A stretch of 64,000 nt of DNA from Methanocaldococcus sp. 28A (GTDB lineage: Archaea > AGJL01 > Methanococci > Methanococcales > Methanocaldococcaceae), in the NCBI GenBank assembly GCA_049852185.1, contig CP187540.1. One strand, given 5' to 3'. This document shows, in pieces, positions 24,167-39,120 of the stretch. A program made the translations under genes and the position numbers. The notes below the pieces were generated by a model. The model made no database searches, had not been told where the DNA came from, and saw only the letters and a list, made by a program, of their open reading frames with translations. The first letter of the stretch is position 1; each line of letters begins with the position of its first letter.

Positions 24167-24475
24167 GGGGTTCTCCCAACGTAGTCATTTATAGACAAAG
24201 ATAGACATTTAGGAAATTTTAATTAGATATTTTCCATTATAATTGACTTTATAGACCATCAGAGGGAAATCTGCGATTTGAACAAAATCCGAAGGATTTT
24301 ATAGCTCGAACCTTCGGTTCGATTCCCTTACTGGAAGCTTCGCTTCCACGTTGGGATTGGGCGTCATCAGTTTCCTAATGGAAACCTCTGCCTCTGTCGT
24401 GGACATAAAAACCTTACGGTTTTTAAGTTCTCGTCGCTTCGTTCCGAGATAGCCCCAAAGCCACCCATAATTTCT
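24167..24475 (-). ncRNA. Putative TnpB omegaRNA/right end overlapping the tnpB 3' end
   Basis: GC-rich multi-hairpin region; long-range stem CCCAACGTGG/CTACGTTGGG closed by AGAACCCC; homologous to 30519-30690. Confidence 0.65.
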
Positions 24476-25590
24476 TTAACCATTCTTAAACCTCTTTTAA
24501 AGATATTAAAACAGCCAACCAATTGTCGATTAAAAGAGTTCTTACAATTAGAGCAAAAAACAACCTGTCCTTCTTGGGACTCCATTTTACTCCCGCATAT
24601 AGGACAGGTTGTCGATGTATAAGCAGGATTAACTAAAATCGTTATCGCTTTATAGCTAATTTTTTGTATTATGCTATTCCAATTAGCTCTATCCAACTTT
24701 CGATTAAAATATCTATTTTTATACATCTTTCGTTTATTCAAATCTTCGAAGATAAAGATTACATTAGAGAATAATCGGGATAGTTGAGTAGTTAATTTAT
24801 GTAAAAAGTCATTAACTCTATTCTTCCTTCTTTCGAACAACCTTTTTATCTTTCTCATAACTCTTAAAGGACACTTTTTAATTAACTTTTTAAGCAAATC
24901 GATTTTTCTATCATAAATCTCTTTAATTCTATGCAGTTCTGATATATCTATTCTAATCCAGCCCTCTGTTGGATGGAATAAATCGAGAGATTTTAAGTTG
25001 CTATCCACTCCAACGATTATATCTTTGTCTGAATAAGTTAAATTATCTTTGAAGGTTAAATATGCCTCATTTTCTTTTAGAATAATTTCTCCTATTGGTA
25101 AATCCTTAACTTTATCAAAAAACCATTTATTTTTAATATCTAAAATTAAATATTCTTTTCTTGGTTTTATGGTTATTCTTATTTCTCCTTTATCTTTATT
25201 GTATTTTATTAATGTTGTTTTAACTCTAACAAATAATCTTTTAACTATCGGTTTTGATTTCGTTCTATAACCCTTTTTATAATTCGAAGCCCAACTACCT
25301 AAGATAGAATAGGCAGTTTTAATAATTCCATCTATATATTGAGAAACATAATTCCAATTTTCTAACAGTTTATTTCTTAAATTTCTTTTGAATTCGTTTG
25401 ATTTTGGTAGTTTTGGTTTGTCCTTTTTGGTCCATTCGATATTATTCCAAATTATGTCTATGCATTCGTTTAGTTTGTCTTTGCATTCAATTAAAAAGGT
25501 TTTAAGTGGATAATTATGACTAACCTTGTAAGATAAAACTATCTGATAAAGCAATTCTTGATTGTTTTTTGATTTCGTTTCATTTGGCAT
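24367..25590 (-). CDS. tnpB: TnpB (IS200/IS605/IS607 OrfB family), no adjacent TnpA
   Basis: RuvC-I GVDSN, RuvC-II FEDL, AYTSTTCPICG...CSNC Zn finger, RuvC-III region reads NRQLVGCFNI. Confidence 0.92.
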   Translation of the reverse strand: MPNETKSKNNQELLYQIVLSYKVSHNYPLKTFLIECKDKLNECIDIIWNNIEWTKKDKPKLPKSNEFKRNLRNKLLENWNYVSQYIDGIIKTAYSILGSWASNYKKGYRTKSKPIVKRLFVRVKTTLIKYNKDKGEIRITIKPRKEYLILDIKNKWFFDKVKDLPIGEIILKENEAYLTFKDNLTYSDKDIIVGVDSNLKSLDLFHPTEGWIRIDISELHRIKEIYDRKIDLLKKLIKKCPLRVMRKIKRLFERRKNRVNDFLHKLTTQLSRLFSNVIFIFEDLNKRKMYKNRYFNRKLDRANWNSIIQKISYKAITILVNPAYTSTTCPICGSKMESQEGQVVFCSNCKNSFNRQLVGCFNIFKRGLRMVKEIMGGFGAISERSDENLKTVRFLCPRQRQRFPLGN

Positions 25591-25670
25591 AGTAATCTTT
25601 GGATTTGTTTTTAGATTGTTATATTTTCATATAATATCTTAACGCATATTTAAAGATTTCTCTAAATATT

Positions 25671-26460
25671 AGTGTGTCTAAAATCGAGTAATATTTATAT
25701 ATTAATATAACTACAAAATAAAAAAATATAGTAACGAAAAGATGGAACTCTAAGATATATGATATAAACGAGATATTAGAAGTTTTTTATGAGATTAGGA
25801 TATTAAATTACCCAAAGGATTGAAACCAAGAAAATATACTATCGAAATATTACGTAAAGTTTCTGTTGTTAAGGAGTTTTTAGGAATATCGTTAAGAACG
25901 ATGGAAAACTTGACAGAGATGTTTATTGACCATTCAGTAATCCATTACTGGGAAAAGAAAATTCTTAGGAAGTTATGAAATTTAGATTATGAGAAGACAT
26001 TTATCGACTCAACAAAGTTTTCGAATAAAGCAGGAGAATTGATAAAAATACATGCTATAACTCGTTACGATTCAGAAAATAAAACATTATTTCCAATATC
26101 TATAGGATTAGATAAATCGGACTTAGAGTTTGCTTATGGAGAGGGATATTTTTATAATTATGAGAAATACGATGACAAGGATACTCCAAATAAAATAGTT
26201 AAATTCAACTACAAGCCAATAATAAAGAAAACGAAAAGAGATAATAAGGGCTACGGTGCTAAAATTAAGGATAAAATTCTTCTATAAAAAAGAATATAAT
26301 AAAAGAAGAATATGCGAGGATTTCTTCGGAGCTTTAACCAACAGATTCGGAGATAAATTGAATACTTTCTTAACTTCGACTTCTATTACTCGAATCGCCA
26401 TCTGGGTTTGTGCATATTTTTTAATGAGGTATCGTATGTAAGTCCTATTTTAGACACACT
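25671..26460 (+). mobile_element. Degraded IS5-like DDE element with 14-bp TIRs
   Basis: AGTGTGTCTAAAAT 25671-84 / ATTTTAGACACACT 26447-60; fragments IDHSVIHYWEK, FIDSTKF, YNKRRICEDFFGAL with frameshifts. Confidence 0.8.
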
Positions 26461-26548
26461 CTTCCTGCGAAAGTCCTATTTTAAATTTTTTAAATTGTAA
26501 TTTATATATTCAGATTTACCAGTTAATGTACTTGTAAAAATAAAATAG

Positions 26549-26622
26549 TGGGCTCGGGGAGATTCGAACTCCCGACCACCGCCGTGTCAGGGCGGCATCA
26601 TAGCCATCTAGACCACGAGCCC
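26549..26622 (-). tRNA. tRNA-Val(GAC)
   Basis: GGGCTCG acceptor, CCGCC-CTGACAC-GGCGG anticodon arm, GTTCGAAT T loop; followed by CTA rather than CCA; TTTATATA promoter about 26658-26665. Confidence 0.96.
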
Positions 26623-26680
26623 ACAACGACAAGCGAAATTAAAGTAGGTATAACTCATATATAAACTTTTCGGTTGTGGT

Positions 26681-27701
26681 GAGGTTGTCGAAAAATTGAA
26701 TTAGGAAGAGTATGAAGTATTATATATTAATACAGATAATCTCATTAATATTAATATATTATGTACTATTGCAGCAGCGATATTGCTGTTTCGTCTAATA
26801 TTTAGCAATCTATCGTTTAATTTTAGACGGTTTTTAGTTTCCAGCCCACCAAAAATGGATTCTACGACTCCACGGTATATATATAAATTTTGATTAAACA
26901 TACCTTTGATTCGTTTTCTAACCTTATTGGTTTTATAATCCCATTTAAACTCTTTAGTTTTAACTATGGGGGAGATGTTGTGATTTAGTGAGTATTCGAA
27001 CAGTTCACAGCAATCGTATCCACTATCAGCCAATAGATATTCAATATCTAAAAAATCGATTTGTTTAAGCATTTCTAATAAGTTTGCACTATCGGAACTA
27101 TAATTAGTGCCCCAACGGGCAGCAACTACTGGAATATAGCCATAGTTAGGATAATAGCATGCTAAAATATGCAATTTACCAAACACTCGTCGTTTAGTCC
27201 GTTTTCCTCGATAAATACATTCACTATATAATCTATTTATGGAAACACCCGCGGAGTCAGCGATATATATTTTATTGGTGGGCTGTTTCAGTAAATTGTC
27301 TATAATTACATACGTAAAGGTAAGTAAGGCTGACAAAGAGGTATAATCTATTCGTTTGAATGCTTTACTGGTAGGATATTCGATATGGTCTCTAAGTCTC
27401 TCAAACTAAGTGTGTAGATATGTTTTAATATTTGAACAGCCATATATTCATTATGGGATATAGCTAGAGCTCGACCTACCCTTCGTCTTTCTATCGAGGG
27501 GCGATTTAACTTATTTATAATACGTAAAATAAATATATATGTCTCCACTATGTCGTATTTCTTATATCTAAGGTCGTAAGCTTTCCAATAATCCTTCCGC
27601 TTCTTGAAACTTTTCTTTTTCTCTCTTGTTTTCTTATTTTCTTCCCGCTTCATATTTCGTATTATCTACTATCAGTTAGTTTAATATTTTTCGACAACCT
27701 C
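26681..27701 (-). mobile_element. IS5-like element with perfect 16-bp TIRs, transposase split into two ORFs
   Basis: GAGGTTGTCGAAAAAT / ATTTTTCGACAACCTC; ORFs 27348-27653 and 26701-27336 with ADSAG, LADSGYD, YIYRGVVESIFG DDE motifs. Confidence 0.88.
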
Positions 27702-27708
27702 GTAGTGT

Positions 27709-28418
27709 TGTGGTATCCTGAAATTATTTCGGAATTATAATTCATGAAATTGCCTCCATATTATTAACTATATTTCCAAAATAAACTTCATAAGGAGTTT
27801 TAAAATCGATTACGTAGTAAGCGAGTAATGAAAACCTTAGGTTTTCGTCTAATCTAAAGAACGATGTGGTTTTATTTTATTATGCCAATCGGAGCGTAGT
27901 GAAGAACTATGAAATCACTAATGTGGTTTCATTTAATTTACGAACTCTTCTAAACTATCAAATCTATTTAGTCGATATTCAACCCCTCTATTTATCCGTT
28001 CAACTTTTCCTTTTTAGGTTGTATTTCACCATATTGTTTCAGTATAGTATATATACGATTATTATGCATATTATACCTACATTCGATAAAATGCTCCAAA
28101 TGTCCTGGGCTTGTCCTCTTATATTCTTCGACTGCTTTAAGGACAATATCTATCTCTTCCTGAGTAATTTCTCTTGGCTTTCGACATCTACGCTTTATAT
28201 TTGGGATTTCTCCAGTCTCTCGATATTCTTTCCATATCTGCTGAACTCTACGAGTGGATATTTCCAGCTTCTTAGCAATATCTTTCGTTCTAAATCCCTT
28301 CTCCTTCCATCTAATAATTTTCTTAATCTTTTTATCGTCAAGTTTTACACCGCCCATATTATATATGAGTTATTACTTTTTATTACTTATAGGTGCGAAA
28401 TATTTTTGGGATACAACA
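27709..28418 (-). mobile_element. Internally deleted IS481-like element
   Basis: TGT-starting imperfect TIRs (TGTGGTATCCTGAAATTATTTCG vs TGTTGTATCCCAAAAATATTTCG, 19/23); ORF 27992-28357 has only the HTH (IAKKLEISTRRVQQIW) and no integrase core. Confidence 0.7.
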
Positions 28419-28571
28419 CGACAACCTCTATTTTTTTATGAATAATTATGCACTATTTTTATTTATGAAGATTAACAATTATTCTCCCTATTTTAAAATA
28501 CTTGACTAAAAATATTTTTATATTTTAGATTTCAAAATTTAGTAGTGAGTAAAGAATTTTCAGGTGGTATT

Positions 28572-29249
28572 ATGTTCAAAATCCAAATATTTAGAAAAAT
28601 CTCCCAAACATTCTTTTTTATTAGAGCTTTAATAGTTACAGGTTTTTATTTGAGTATTATAAGCTTTGTTAAAGGATTTATTTTAGGAAAAGGAGCATAT
28701 ACCAACTTAAGGATTGTTGCAGTAATATTAGCACTAATTGCTGGAAGAATATTTTGTGGTTGGATGTGTCCTTTTGGATTCTTATTTGATTTAGTTTATC
28801 AAACAAGAGTAAAAATCTTTAAATTAAAAAAATTACCAACTATGCCAGAACATATACACCACACATTGAAATATTTTAAGTATTTTGTGTTAGTTTTAGT
28901 GATTGTATTAGCCTATGTGTTTGGAACTGATATATTTTTTAATTCATATATCTTAGCTTATTTATTATTGGCTTTATTTTTAGTTTTAGGATTTATTTAT
29001 CCAAGATTTTTCTGTAAATATGTCTGTCCTGTTGGAGCTTTATTAAGTATATTTGCAAAATTTTCAATATTCAGACTAAAACTTAATAAAAATAAATGTA
29101 CAGGTTGTAGATTATGTGAATTTAAATGCCCGATGCAAATAAAAATAGCAAATGTAGAAAATATAAACCAAATGGAGTGTATAAGATGTTTTGAGTGCAT
29201 GAGTGCATGTAGAAAAAAATCAATAACTTTCTCACCTTTCTTTAAATAA
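28572..29249 (+). CDS. Membrane 4Fe-4S protein (NapH/MauN-like)
   Basis: GRIFCGWMCPFG, RFFCKYVCP.G, CTGCRLC...CP, CIRCFECMSAC. Confidence 0.88.
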   Translation: MFKIQIFRKISQTFFFIRALIVTGFYLSIISFVKGFILGKGAYTNLRIVAVILALIAGRIFCGWMCPFGFLFDLVYQTRVKIFKLKKLPTMPEHIHHTLKYFKYFVLVLVIVLAYVFGTDIFFNSYILAYLLLALFLVLGFIYPRFFCKYVCPVGALLSIFAKFSIFRLKLNKNKCTGCRLCEFKCPMQIKIANVENINQMECIRCFECMSACRKKSITFSPFFK

Positions 29250-29261
29250 AATAACTCATTT

Positions 29262-30420
29262 ACTGACAGTGTGAATTAACGATATGAGCTATAAAAGCAA
29301 AAAATAAAAATAGGATGAGGTTAAATAGTTTATTAAAAAAAGGTGATACCAGTATGTTAGCAGCATTTAATGATATACTGGTTGATTCTATAAATAGTTT
29401 TGGGATATGTTCTTCGGAAGAGATAGCGAAGTATGGGGTGACGAGGACATTAATGCCGATAAAGACGATTAAAGGGATATCAGAGAGTGTTTTAGAGATT
29501 GATAGAACGACAGTTATTAAATATCTGCAAGAACTGTCAGAAGATGAGCATTGCCTATATAATCAGTTATTTAACCTTCCCGATATTTTAGATTACGATA
29601 GATACAAATTTGTTGCGATAGTTGATTCAATGTTGGGAAGGAAATTTAGTTGTGGCGTTTATGGATGCACTATTAGATATAATTACATCGAGAGACACTA
29701 TAAACCATACCAAGATGTAATAAATTGCTGTATTTACCATGAAAAAAAAAGGGTTATATGTGATTTACACAATAGTAAAGCCACTCGATAAAACAACCAC
29801 AGAAGTGTATATTGAGATTATCGAGTATCTATCTAAGATAGGTATCAGGACGGTCATAGGAGACGCAGCTGTAACTACAAAGAAAGTTTTAAAGAGATGT
29901 AAGGAATTAGGGATTACTTACATCGGTAGAATTAAGAAAAATTGGAAGACCGAACTTTTCGGTGATACCGAGAAAATAGAAAAATTATTCGAGAAGGATT
30001 TAGATAATAATAAGTTCAAATTAAGGACTATTAATTGAATAAAATATAAATTATCCGAAAAAGTAGTAAATATCCTTCTCGTGGGTAGAGTTAAAATCGT
30101 TGCAGTGTTGATAGATAATCAGAAAAAACCTAAATATTTAATCTCTACAGACGCTAAAAAGAAATCTGAAAACATAATAAAAGAGTATATGAAGAGACCG
30201 AAAATAGAAGAAGTCCATAGAAGATATAAATCAGTTTTAAAAATCGAATGAAATTATTTAATCTCTAAAAAAAGCAATATTGGGTTCGTTAGATTTATAG
30301 CAATTATTCATAATTGTATAGAATATTTAAGCAATAAATACTATATATCATTTTATGAAGTATTTAAAGAATGCAATAAAGAACTAATAAAGAAAGGGCT
30401 ATCGTAATCACACCGTCAGT
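29262..30420 (+). mobile_element. Degraded IS701/IS4-like element
   Basis: TIRs ACTGACAGTGTGA / TCACACCGTCAGT (12/13); fragments AIVDSML, IGDAA, YIGRIKKN, YMKRPKIEEVHRRYK with frameshift and in-frame stops. Confidence 0.78.
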
Positions 30421-30518
30421 GGAGAAAATTAAAATCGATAAAAATATCAGTTGGTACGAACTTAGAAGAAAACTAAATCGATTATCCATGGGCACTACAG
30501 AGATTAGGACTAAAATAA

Positions 30519-30749
30519 GGAGTCTGTCCAACATGGACAATTATATATAAATCCACGTTGGACTTGGGCGTTATCAACCCTCTAGGTTCATTGGCTTAGG
30601 TCTCTGTCCCTGTTATGGACATAAAAACCTTACGGTTTTTAAGTTCTCGTCACTTCGCTCCGAGAGAACCCCGGCTCCTCCCATTGGGTAAATTCGATAA
30701 TAACTGCCCCTCTTGGCCCCTCATTCTCTCCCGCATCTGGGGCAGTTAT
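30519..30749 (-). ncRNA. Stand-alone TnpB omegaRNA-like structured RNA
   Basis: Homologous to the tnpB 3' RNA region; 5' hairpin ATAACTGCCCC/GGGGCAGTTAT; 3' stem GTCCAACGTGGA/TCCATGTTGGAC; no ORF. Confidence 0.65.
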
Positions 30750-30774
30750 GATTTCTATTTCTTATATATGCTCA

Positions 30775-30788
30775 TATATAAACCTTTT
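30775..30788 (-). promoter_or_regulatory. BRE-TATA promoter of the stand-alone RNA
   Basis: AAAAGG-TTTATATA about 26 nt upstream of the 5' hairpin; same form as the tRNA-Val promoter. Confidence 0.7.
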
Positions 30789-30916
30789 AGTAATAAAAAT
30801 CTATAAATGTGTATATTTGTCTATGAAAAATTAATCTGTTTCAAACGGCAATATTTAGTAAAATATATATACTTCCAAAAACAAAACTAATTTAGAAATT
30901 TTTTAGAGGTGTTAAA

Positions 30917-36895: not shown

Positions 36896-37074
36896 ATTTT
36901 CATCATTTTTCTATTTTTTATTTTATTAAATCCGTTAATCTAAATTCGTTATTTTAATGTGAATATCGTTTTTAATAAAATTTTTGGAGACGATTTTCAA
37001 ACCGTTAATGATATTTATTCGTTACTATACTAATGATTATCGTAAATCAGTTAAAAATATACTTGGTGATAGGT

Positions 37075-39120
37075 ATGAAAAACTGCATCGCTGCCATACC
37101 AGAAATTAAGGAGATGGTTGAAAAGGCAAAATTAAAAGGTATTGAAACCCCTCACACAAGATTCCCTAACCAATTTCCAAAATGTCCTTATGGATTAAAG
37201 GGGGTTTACTGTATATTATGTGCTAATGGACCTTGTAGAATAACTGAAAAAACACCATATGGTGTTTGTGGTGCTACAGCAGATGTTATAGTTGCAAGAA
37301 ACCTCTGTAGAGCAGTAGCTGCTGGAACTTCATGTTATGTCCATTGTGCTGAAAACGCTGCAAGAGCTTTATTGTCAGCAGGTAAAGGAGAAGGAAACTA
37401 TGAGATAAGAAATGAGAAAAAATTAAGATTTTTAGCAAAAAAACTTGGATTTGATGCAAATAAAGATGCTAAGCAGTTGGCTGTTGAAGTTGCTGAGTTC
37501 ATATTAGAGGATATGTACAAACCAAGATGGGAAAAGAGTGAATTAGTCCCTAAATTATGTCCAGAAAAGAGATTAGAAGTATTTAAAAAATTAGATATCC
37601 TTCCAGGAGGGGCAAAAGGAGAGATTGTTGATGCATTAACAAAGACTTCAACAAACTTAAACAGCAATCCAATGGATTTATTGGTTCATTGCCTTAGATT
37701 AGGATTACATGCTGGATTTACAGGGCTTTTGATGACATGTTGGTTAAACGATATATTATTTGGCTCACCAAAGATTACAGTTGTAGAAAATGGATTCAGC
37801 TCAGTTAAGCCAAACAACGTAAACATTATGATAACTGGGCATCAGCATGCATTAATTCAGCCATTATGTGAAGTAGCAATGGAAGAAGATTTAATAAAAA
37901 TGGCAAAAGAAGCTGGAGCTGATGAGATTAAGATTATTGGAGCTACATGTAATGGACAAGATGGATTCAGCTCAGTTAAGCCAAACAACGTAAACATTAT
38001 GATAACTGGGCATCAGCATGCATTAATTCAGCCATTATGTGAAGTAGCAATGGAAGAAGATTTAATAAAAATGGCAAAAGAAGCTGGAGCTGATGAGATT
38101 AAGATTATTGGAGCTACATGTAATGGACAAGATATGGAGACAAGAATTGCTCATTTACCAGAAAGCTTTGTTGGTTACATAGCTAACAACTTTACAACAG
38201 AGCCATTAGTAGCTACTGGATTAATTGATGCTGTAGTTTCAGAATTCAACTGTACATTCCATGGATTGAAGTTTGTTGCTGAAAAAACCAAAACAAAATT
38301 AATCTGTATTGATGATATGGCTTACATTGAAGGAGCTGAATACATCCCATGGGAGCCAGAAAATGCAAAAGAAAAAGCAAGAGAGATTATTAAGAAAGCA
38401 ATTGAAGCATTTAAAGAGAGAAAGAACATACAGAAAGATTACTATGACACAAAAGTTAAATCAGTAGTAGGAGTTGGAGAAGAATCATTAGTTGAATTCT
38501 TAGGAGGTAGTGTAAAGCCATTAATTGATTTAATAGCCAAAGGAAAGATTAAAGGGGTTGTTGGAGTTGTTGGATGCTCTAACATAGCAAGTGGAGGTCA
38601 TGACAATATAATTGTAACATTAACAAAAGAACTCATCAAGAGAGATATTTTAGTCTTAGCAGGAGGTTGTGTAAATAGTCCATTAAAACACGCAGGTTTA
38701 TTCTCTCCTGAAAGTGCTGAATTGGCAGGAGAGAACTTAAAAGAGGTTTGTAAGAGCTTAGGAATTCCTCCAGTATTAAACTTTGGAGCATGTTTGAGTA
38801 TTGCAAGAATTGAGCAAGTTGCTGTTGCAATTGCTGAAGAATTGGGAGTTGATATTCCAGATTTACCAGTTGCAGCTTCAGCTCCTCAGTGGTTGGAGGA
38901 GCAAGCGTTAGCAGATGCAACTTATGCAGTAGATATGGGTTTCACCGTCCACGTTTCACCGGTTCCATTTGTTACTGGCAGTGATTTAGTAACAAAGGTC
39001 TTAACAGAGGCTGTTGAAGGCTTAACAGGAGGTAAATTAATTCCTGAACCAAATCCATACAAAGCTGCTGATATCTTAGAGAATGTAATTATGGAGAAGA
39101 GGAAGAAATTAGGACTCTAA
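37075..39120 (+). CDS. cooS: Divergent anaerobic Ni-CO dehydrogenase-like protein with internal 57-aa duplication
   Basis: CPYG..G..C..C..GPC...CG B/D cluster motif; TGH, ATC, EFNC, VGC, GGC, GAC C-cluster positions. Confidence 0.9.
   Translation: MKNCIAAIPEIKEMVEKAKLKGIETPHTRFPNQFPKCPYGLKGVYCILCANGPCRITEKTPYGVCGATADVIVARNLCRAVAAGTSCYVHCAENAARALLSAGKGEGNYEIRNEKKLRFLAKKLGFDANKDAKQLAVEVAEFILEDMYKPRWEKSELVPKLCPEKRLEVFKKLDILPGGAKGEIVDALTKTSTNLNSNPMDLLVHCLRLGLHAGFTGLLMTCWLNDILFGSPKITVVENGFSSVKPNNVNIMITGHQHALIQPLCEVAMEEDLIKMAKEAGADEIKIIGATCNGQDGFSSVKPNNVNIMITGHQHALIQPLCEVAMEEDLIKMAKEAGADEIKIIGATCNGQDMETRIAHLPESFVGYIANNFTTEPLVATGLIDAVVSEFNCTFHGLKFVAEKTKTKLICIDDMAYIEGAEYIPWEPENAKEKAREIIKKAIEAFKERKNIQKDYYDTKVKSVVGVGEESLVEFLGGSVKPLIDLIAKGKIKGVVGVVGCSNIASGGHDNIIVTLTKELIKRDILVLAGGCVNSPLKHAGLFSPESAELAGENLKEVCKSLGIPPVLNFGACLSIARIEQVAVAIAEELGVDIPDLPVAASAPQWLEEQALADATYAVDMGFTVHVSPVPFVTGSDLVTKVLTEAVEGLTGGKLIPEPNPYKAADILENVIMEKRKKLGL
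37790..38131 (+). repeat. Perfect 171-bp tandem duplication within cooS
   Basis: 37790-37960 identical to 37961-38131. Confidence 0.97.

What the first reader, a model, noticed from the sequence alone, without database searches (positions are those of the whole stretch)
30499..30790. Stand-alone, promoter-driven TnpB omegaRNA-like gene with its own putative guide
On the minus strand a canonical BRE-TATA precedes a ~230-nt GC-rich RNA with no ORF. It has an added 5' hairpin (11-bp stem), then a scaffold collinear with the tnpB 3' region: ATGGG..GGGGTT...GA(T/C)(A/G)ACGCCCAA..CCAACGTGGA, a closing stem, then AGACTCC vs AGAACCCC, which can pair back with GGGGTT as a pseudoknot. The 3' flanks differ: TTATTTTAGTCCTAATCTCT here vs CTAAAGTTTATGGATTTCTT at tnpB. 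Established: TnpB guides are the sequence just 3' of the scaffold. Inference: this is a trans-acting guide for the nearby TnpB. It is transcribed divergently from the oxidative-stress cluster. I found no target for either flank within this window.
Basis: partly seen in the sequence, partly recalled or inferred. Interest (0 to 1): 0.72.

Follow-up and report, generated by a model that had tools for sequence, protein, structure and literature searches.

The report
Gene-less IS607 transposon keeping guide RNA
This is one copy of a 330-base, protein-free jumping element, repeated in this heat-loving methanogen and its relatives, that keeps a promoter and the folded scaffold of a TnpB guide RNA, which TnpB made elsewhere would likely load; its "guide" is only the transposon debris it happens to sit next to.

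Summary
The described sequence is real, but it is not a dedicated host RNA gene. It is a 330-bp non-autonomous IS607 mini-element (30848-30519, minus strand). I delimited 38 end-to-end copies in 9 genomes, each with a different 3' flank, inserted at (T/A)GCC. None of 16 relatives has it at this locus. The "added" 5' hairpin is inherited from the tnpB zinc-finger codons and is present in the nearby tnpB. The RNA fold shows compensatory changes, so the family is likely selected to make a trans-loaded omega RNA. The guide is debris of IS6 and IS701 transposase genes, with no TAM-adjacent target found and no match in 40 relatives. Transcription and TnpB binding are untested. This copy has lost a conserved GA, and the genome has no IS607 transposase. 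Stand-alone omega RNAs acting in trans are published, and Pyrococcus abyssi sRkB/sRkC are transcribed analogues. Two points go beyond that: K-turn/K-loop-like motifs (predicted L7Ae sites), and Gln in place of the third RuvC Asp across this TnpB clade. The scan noted an analogous, sequence-unrelated element elsewhere in this genome (e1-6914220). New member of a known kind.

The parts
30519..30848 (-). Whole non-autonomous IS607 mini-element (330 bp), from the CC core at the left end to the CC core at the right end
   Evidence: boundaries shared by copies with unrelated flanks; scarless empty sites
30847..30850 (-). Insertion motif TGCC (predicted TAM; the last CC is the recombination core)
   Evidence: G before the CC in 54 of 58 left ends: TGCC 34, AGCC 16, CGCC 4 (the CC itself was a filter)
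30795..30848 (-). Left end with ATAGACA-type repeats, inferred TnpA binding sites
   Evidence: similar to left ends of autonomous tnpA-tnpB IS607 elements of relatives
30775..30791 (-). BRE-like run and TATA box (predicted promoter; start near 30750 inferred)
   Evidence: TTTAWAW at element positions 51-100 in 31 of 38 elements against 15% of random genome 50-mers
30700..30749 (-). 5' hairpin P1 derived from tnpB zinc-finger codons; 11-bp outer stem; inner 4-bp stem keeps only 2 of 4 pairs in this copy
30519..30684 (-). omega-RNA scaffold core; predicted pseudoknot between 30672-30667 and 30524-30519; closing stem 30563-30552 / 30537-30526
30615..30661 (-). 47-nt hairpin insert, present or absent both in mini-elements and in tnpB genes
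30564..30594 (-). K-loop-like motif (30594-30579) and junction K-turn-like motif (30575-30571), the latter with a private G>A at 30572
   Evidence: K-turn consensus recalled; L7Ae binding untested
30499..30518 (-). Predicted 20-nt guide = DNA flanking the element
   Evidence: position by analogy with characterised IS607 TnpB; no TAM-adjacent target found
30483..30516 (-). 34-nt fragment of an IS6 transposase gene, read antisense
   Evidence: 88-94% to 9 other places; family by NCBIfam NF033587, over cut-off
30422..30484 (-). 63-nt fragment of an IS701 transposase gene, read antisense; a broken DDE element follows (29258-30420)
   Evidence: 90-97% to 10 other places; NF049921, over cut-off; frames
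24367..25590 (-). Nearby tnpB (407 aa): RuvC D196 and E282 kept, Gln356 at the third catalytic position; one of two intact tnpB genes of this clade in the genome
24167..24613 (-). omega-RNA region of the nearby tnpB, including the same P1 hairpin inside its coding sequence

Best explanation
It is a 330-bp protein-free IS607 mini-element, an internal-deletion derivative of a tnpB element that keeps both ends, a predicted promoter and the structured parts of the omega RNA; that RNA is likely loaded in trans by a TnpB encoded elsewhere and would point it at the element's own empty site. Shown from sequence: the ends, multicopy spread, scarless insertion at (T/A)GCC, origin from tnpB, and that the guide is flanking DNA. 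Inferred from characterised IS607/IS605 systems: a serine TnpA supplied in trans moves the element; after excision, TAM and flank are rejoined; TnpB with this RNA recognises that joint and favours restoration from a sister chromosome. In this copy the flank is IS6 and IS701 debris, and with no IS607 TnpA found in the genome the element is probably immobile at present.
For: 38 end-to-end elements of 259-430 bp in 9 genomes with 38 different 20-nt flanks (only the loci I fetched, not a census). Matches in 16 of 41 genomes. Insertion motif. Two clean empty sites among 36 elements tested, plus a paralogous empty site for the nearby tnpB element. The sister TnpB clade (54-56% identical) lies directly behind IS607 TnpA, and those elements have related left ends, with GCC in 6 of 7 distinct cases. 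Fold on 19 hand-picked copies: 91.7% of cells paired, 15 of 46 pairs with two-sided changes, 0 of 500 shuffles as high, at most 6 such pairs when slid. IS607 moves as double-stranded DNA, so hairpins are not expected for mobility itself (inference). TATA kept in 31 of 38. Precedents: PATEs and stand-alone omega RNAs acting in trans; P. abyssi sRkB/sRkC transcribed from such promoters.
Against: No transcript or TnpB binding was tested for this RNA. The TnpB clade has Gln, never Asp, at RuvC-III (108 of 120, 9 gaps, 2 His, 1 Asn), so cutting may be weak or absent. The pseudoknot (98% paired) and the ATGGG/CCCA helix show no two-sided change, and the aligned copies are kin, which inflates covariation. 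P1 is missing in 8 of 38 elements by a crude motif test, including a spreading 260-bp subfamily, so it is not needed for spread. Only 2 of 36 empty sites were cleanly seen. This copy has 10 private substitutions against six sisters, one in a conserved GA. No IS607 TnpA was found in G000.
Confidence: 0.67

Rival explanations
1. Passive remnant. It is the same mini-element, but the RNA of this copy no longer guides anything, either because the copy has decayed or because the Gln-bearing TnpB clade cannot cut. The conserved fold would then be inherited or serve another purpose, such as RNA stability.
For: Private G>A in the junction GA that 46 of 52 parsed elements keep, and a half-broken inner P1 stem. 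No IS607 TnpA in the genome. Several copies here are cut by other IS. RuvC-III Gln.
Against: Promoter, outer P1, pseudoknot (the C>T change leaves a G-U pair) and closing stem are intact here. Subfamilies without coding constraint show compensatory P1 variants. D196 and E282 are invariant in all homologues that cover them, and conserved active-site rearrangements are argued to retain activity.
Confidence: 0.25
2. Domesticated anti-transposon guide. The host keeps this copy because its 3' tail directs TnpB to IS6 copies, or pairs antisense with IS6 and IS701 transposase mRNAs.
For: Guide positions 3-36 match 9 IS6 places at 88-94%, the next 63 nt match 10 IS701 places, and both read antisense to the transposase.
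Against: The five best IS6 matches mismatch guide positions 1-2 and are preceded by TTTC, not GCC; TAM-proximal double mismatches abolish ISDra2 TnpB cleavage. Repeats follow 7 of 17 right ends against 192 of 400 random non-coding sites and 7 of 14 left-end flanks, so there is no enrichment. The flank is found in 0 of 40 relatives.
Confidence: 0.05
3. Host regulatory RNA tied to the divergent oxidative-stress operon.
For: The left end lies about 70 bp upstream of the CMD start codon.
Against: Absent at this locus in 16 of 16 relatives, whose upstream neighbours differ. Copies sit beside unrelated genes elsewhere.
Confidence: 0.03

Closest known systems
Stand-alone omega RNAs / PATE-like minimal elements (PMC10055086, passages; PMC10691335, passages and section 8)
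   Same: Protein-free, bounded by transposon ends, multicopy, carry an omega RNA whose guide is the flank and that needs an effector in trans.
   Different: The PATEs described are IS200/IS605 (Y1 transposase). This element has IS607 ends with a CC core, is archaeal, and keeps a separate hairpin from the tnpB zinc-finger codons.
Pyrococcus abyssi sRkB/sRkC (PMC3124441; passages, section 9, supplement 4)
   Same: About 210-220 nt, BRE/TATA-driven, one of six dispersed copies related to the 3' end of an orphan orfB (tnpB); shared sequence starts in the zinc-finger coding region and flanks diverge after a sharp boundary (my reading of the supplement).
   Different: Different sequence family by eye (not compared by tool), ending in GG rather than CC. 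There, transcription and L7Ae binding at two K-turns were shown but no link to TnpB was tested; here nothing is shown experimentally.
IS607 TnpB systems CboIStron (10.1101/2023.11.20.567912, passages) and ISFba1 (PMC11061315, passages)
   Same: Serine TnpA family, 2-nt core shared by both ends, TAM equal to the insertion motif, guide immediately after the right end.
   Different: G-rich TAMs (TGGG, AGGAG) and a canonical D-E-D active site there; predicted (T/A)GCC TAM and D-E-Q here; no intron; no RAGATH-18 match at the Rfam threshold.
HgcC (RF00062) and halophile sotRNA / PATE RNAs (PMC4615843, passages)
   Same: GC-rich archaeal RNAs linked to tnpB 3' ends.
   Different: HgcC does not match this RNA; its only hit in the genome is sub-threshold and elsewhere.

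Membership tests
IS607 family (non-autonomous derivative) | Ends shared with elements encoding a serine TnpA | tested here: met
   left ends and right ends resemble those of tnpA-tnpB elements in relatives; TnpA over the NF033518 cut-off
IS607 family (non-autonomous derivative) | 2-nt core at both ends, scarless insertion, no target duplication beyond the core | tested here: met
   CC at both ends; 2 clean empty sites of 36 tested, 1 diverged, 1 remnant, 2 self-match artefacts
IS607 family (non-autonomous derivative) | Multiple copies with unrelated flanks | tested here: met
   38 distinct flanks of 38
IS607 family (non-autonomous derivative) | TnpA available in trans in this genome | tested here: not met
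   0 matches to NF033518 in G000, 99.94% complete; over cut-off in 11 of 41 genomes searched
TnpB omega RNA | Scaffold homologous to the 3' region of a tnpB and ending at the right end | tested here: met
TnpB omega RNA | 3'-terminal pseudoknot | tested here: inconclusive
   6-bp helix 98% paired in 19 copies, predicted by RNAalifold, but no two-sided change
TnpB omega RNA | Transcribed, bound by TnpB, guides cleavage next to a TAM | not testable with these tools
   needs RNA-seq, RIP and cleavage assays
Canonical TnpB nuclease (partner protein) | RuvC D-E-D triad | tested here: not met
   D196 and E282 kept; the position of ISDra2 D361 is Gln356, Gln in 108 of 120 homologues and never Asp
HgcC (RF00062) | Covariance model score at or above gathering | tested here: not met
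IS200/IS605 PATE | Y1-type ends with subterminal DNA hairpins at both ends | not tested
   not examined directly; the ends match IS607 instead
K-turn / K-loop RNAs bound by L7Ae | Helix, 3-nt bulge and tandem GA/AG (consensus recalled) | tested here: inconclusive
   K-loop-like segment in 38 of 56 rows, 37 of the 38 fitting, this copy included; junction GA in 46 of 52 parsed elements but AA in this copy; binding untested

The most novel reading that the evidence does not exclude
A hyperthermophile-specific IS607 TnpB clade with a D-E-Q active site uses K-turn-bearing omega RNAs that need the host protein L7Ae to fold, and dozens of promoter-driven mini-elements supply its guides in trans. This would make the known P. 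abyssi L7Ae-binding RNAs sRkB/sRkC members of the same class, and give a host-factor-dependent, possibly non-cutting or nicking RNA-guided complex.
Probability: 0.25. Interest if true: 0.62.

Novelty: new member of a known kind. Interest (0 to 1): 0.3.

Why it matters
As a single locus it is ordinary: a selfish mini-transposon whose guide is whatever it landed beside. As a family it is a tidy natural experiment. Deletions have pared the element down to ends, promoter and RNA modules, which marks the scaffold's 5' boundary inside the tnpB coding sequence, predicts a (T/A)GCC TAM, and gives a testable thermostable TnpB with an unusual active site and a possible L7Ae cofactor. It bears on the open question of what stand-alone omega RNAs do (stated as unknown in PMC10691335), and supports the self-maintenance answer rather than defence.

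Tried and rejected
Rfam at gathering and at E up to 10: only three tRNAs in the window and three sub-threshold chance hits in the region. Sequencing runs: no RNA holder listed; this is no evidence either way. Guide targets: none TAM-adjacent in the own chromosome or C2; none in viral contigs, plasmids or phages; 9 exact 20-mer hits in metagenomes, none preceded by GCC or extending further, treated as chance. Guides enriched for other transposons: rejected. P1 as a K-turn in this copy: does not fit the recalled consensus by eye, although the P1 variants in other species may. The sigma-70 scan does not apply to archaeal promoters. The element in plasmids: one weak 53-nt match, dismissed. Technical failures: one search timed out; one search stopped at L069, so L069-L080 were seen only; the junction parse failed and was redone, where the 5' side was still parsed unreliably and is not counted. 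Literature: searches listed no paper on this Methanocaldococcus element, and 44 and 77 listed none whose title or abstract start joins TnpB omega RNA with L7Ae or K-turns; most subscription papers are not searched. Two recalled older papers (GC-rich RNAs of M. jannaschii; archaeal IS review) were not held under the ids I tried, so an earlier description there is not excluded. Supplements of the bioRxiv IStron paper and the clade tables of PMC10691335 were not seen; the latter may already name the D-to-Q clade.

Full report
Observation. The minus strand carries a BRE-like run and TATA box (30791-30775), then 231 nt of 47.6% GC in a 29.9% GC window. The stretch folds far better than shuffles (z -4.5) and holds no ORF of 80 aa. 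The 11-bp stem, the scaffold motifs and both 3' flanks are as quoted, except that the nearby tnpB has GGGGCT at the pseudoknot strand. Rfam has no real match, and HgcC scores only one sub-threshold hit elsewhere in the genome. The closest named TnpB relatives are from Methanocaldococcus.

It is a mobile element. BLAST finds 7 other long matches in the same chromosome. Aligned with flanks, similarity starts at CC|GTTTGAAAC (30848) and ends at the AGACCCC-type end (30519). Matches occur in 16 of 41 genomes searched. A profile built from delimited copies found 38 end-to-end elements of 259-430 bp in 9 genomes, 6 of them in this genome, with 38 different 20-nt 3' flanks; this covers only this genome and the loci I fetched. 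Beside the orthologous CMD gene the element is absent in 16 of 16 relatives, so the oxidative-stress neighbourhood is incidental.

Family. The sister clade of the nearby TnpB (54-56% identical) lies directly behind an IS607 serine transposase. Those autonomous elements have related left ends, preceded by GCC in 6 of 7 distinct cases, and related right ends. Among 58 left ends, 54 have G before the CC core. Of 36 elements tested for an empty site, two gave clean scarless joints, one a diverged site, one a remnant element and two self-matches; the nearby tnpB element has a paralogous empty site too. This fits IS607 chemistry, in which a 2-nt core is shared and the TAM equals the insertion motif (passages). 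No IS607 TnpA was found in this genome; 11 of 41 genomes have one over the cut-off.

The hairpin is inherited, not added. It aligns to the CPxCG..SQEGQ codons of tnpB (0 of 1000 shuffles as high). All 21 distinct tnpB rows parsed carry it, with 4 of 4 inner and 9-13 outer pairs; the nearby gene has a 13-bp version. The mini-element thus keeps two structured pieces of tnpB and drops about 76 nt between them.

Is the RNA selected? On 19 hand-picked copies that carry P1, my 46-pair structure gave 91.7% paired cells and 15 pairs with two-sided changes, above all 500 shuffles and all slid controls. P1 comes in at least three compensated variants. Against this, the copies are kin, the pseudoknot and the ATGGG/CCCA helix show no two-sided change, the inner P1 stem was misaligned in that alignment (70% paired), and 8 of 38 elements lack P1 by a crude test. 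A TATA motif sits at the same place in 31 of 38 elements against 15% of random genome windows (an intergenic background would be higher). A K-loop-like segment fits in 37 of the 38 rows that carry it, out of 56, and the junction GA is kept in 46 of 52 parsed elements; the K-turn consensus is recalled. This copy has 10 private substitutions against six sisters (range 1-20 among them), one removing that GA.

The guide. The flank is a mosaic: 34 nt of IS6 transposase, 63 nt of IS701 transposase, then the end of a broken DDE element. The five best IS6 matches mismatch guide positions 1-2 and follow TTTC; such mismatches abolish ISDra2 cleavage (passages). The flank is in 0 of 40 relatives, and no target was found in viruses, phages or plasmids. 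Repeat-matching flanks are no commoner after right ends (7 of 17) than at random non-coding sites (192 of 400). The genome has been shuffled through IS copies: the left and right flanks of one original tnpB insertion now lie 580 kb apart. The present flank is therefore likely a rearrangement product (inference).

The partner protein. The nearby TnpB has a TnpB/Cas12f-like predicted fold, D196 and E282, but Gln where ISDra2 has D361. Gln is found in 108 of 120 homologues and Asp in none. Conserved RuvC-III rearrangements, some nearly confined to archaea, are published and argued to stay active (section 8); whether this clade is among those named could not be seen. A second intact gene of the clade (444 aa) exists, so proximity singles out nothing.

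Mechanism. Shown: structure, spread, origin, insertion motif, and the nature of the flank. Inferred: transcription from the TATA, loading on TnpB in trans, recognition of the post-excision joint, and restoration by recombination, as shown for other IS605 and IS607 systems. I put this at about two in three, a passive remnant at one in four, and a host-useful guide or regulator under one in ten.

Novelty. Stand-alone omega RNAs working in trans are known, and P. abyssi sRkB/sRkC are transcribed, L7Ae-binding RNAs of the same architecture. My searches listed no paper on this family, with the gaps given under Tried and rejected. Verdict: new member of a known kind, modest interest, with the K-turn motifs and the D-E-Q clade as the parts worth a bench test.

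Noticed in passing
window 24367-25590 (-), residue 356: TnpB clade of Methanococcales and Thermococcales with Gln at the RuvC-III position in 108 of 120 homologues and an invariant Asn two residues after the RuvC-I Asp.
   Followed up: partly
window 30615-30661 and about 24406-24452: A 47-nt hairpin insert is present or absent at the same site in both mini-elements and tnpB genes of several species; in tnpB it shifts the C-terminus (407 against 444 aa here). It suggests a smaller mobile hairpin or recombination between copies.
   Followed up: partly
G000:C1:748257-748340, 1215903 and 632167 (window 24167): One paralogous empty site joins the flank of a left end at 1215903 to the right flank of the window's tnpB element: the two ends of one insertion were separated, apparently through another IS (window 25647-26460).
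   Followed up: yes
window 25647-30420: IS graveyard: a repeated element at 25647-26460, a split IS5-like element at 26680-27702, a repeat at 27706-28418 and a broken DDE element at 29258-30420, around a tRNA and a 4Fe-4S membrane protein gene.
   Followed up: partly
G000:C2 (10393 bp): The small contig gives the same hits three times at a 3896-bp period, so it is probably a plasmid assembled as a multimer; it carries a short tnpB fragment and a promoter-like piece similar to the element's left part.
   Followed up: no
window 37033-39120 (+): The 695-aa ORF (CO dehydrogenase-like by recall) contains an exact in-frame internal duplication of about 60 residues; real or an assembly artefact.
   Followed up: no
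G000:C1:1519051 and 574496: The other intact tnpB element has a near-perfect paralogous match to its flank preceded by GCC; whether it is a self-target depends on a 2-nt uncertainty in that element's right end.
   Followed up: partly
L012 (G007:C139) and G000:C1:953970-954051: Very short derivatives with left and right end but no scaffold exist, so the scaffold can be lost.
   Followed up: partly
G000:C1:741661-742025, 1422318-1422661, 360159-360502: A second, unrelated family of protein-free tnpB-derived elements in the same genome; the sub-threshold HgcC hit overlaps one end of a copy.
   Followed up: partly
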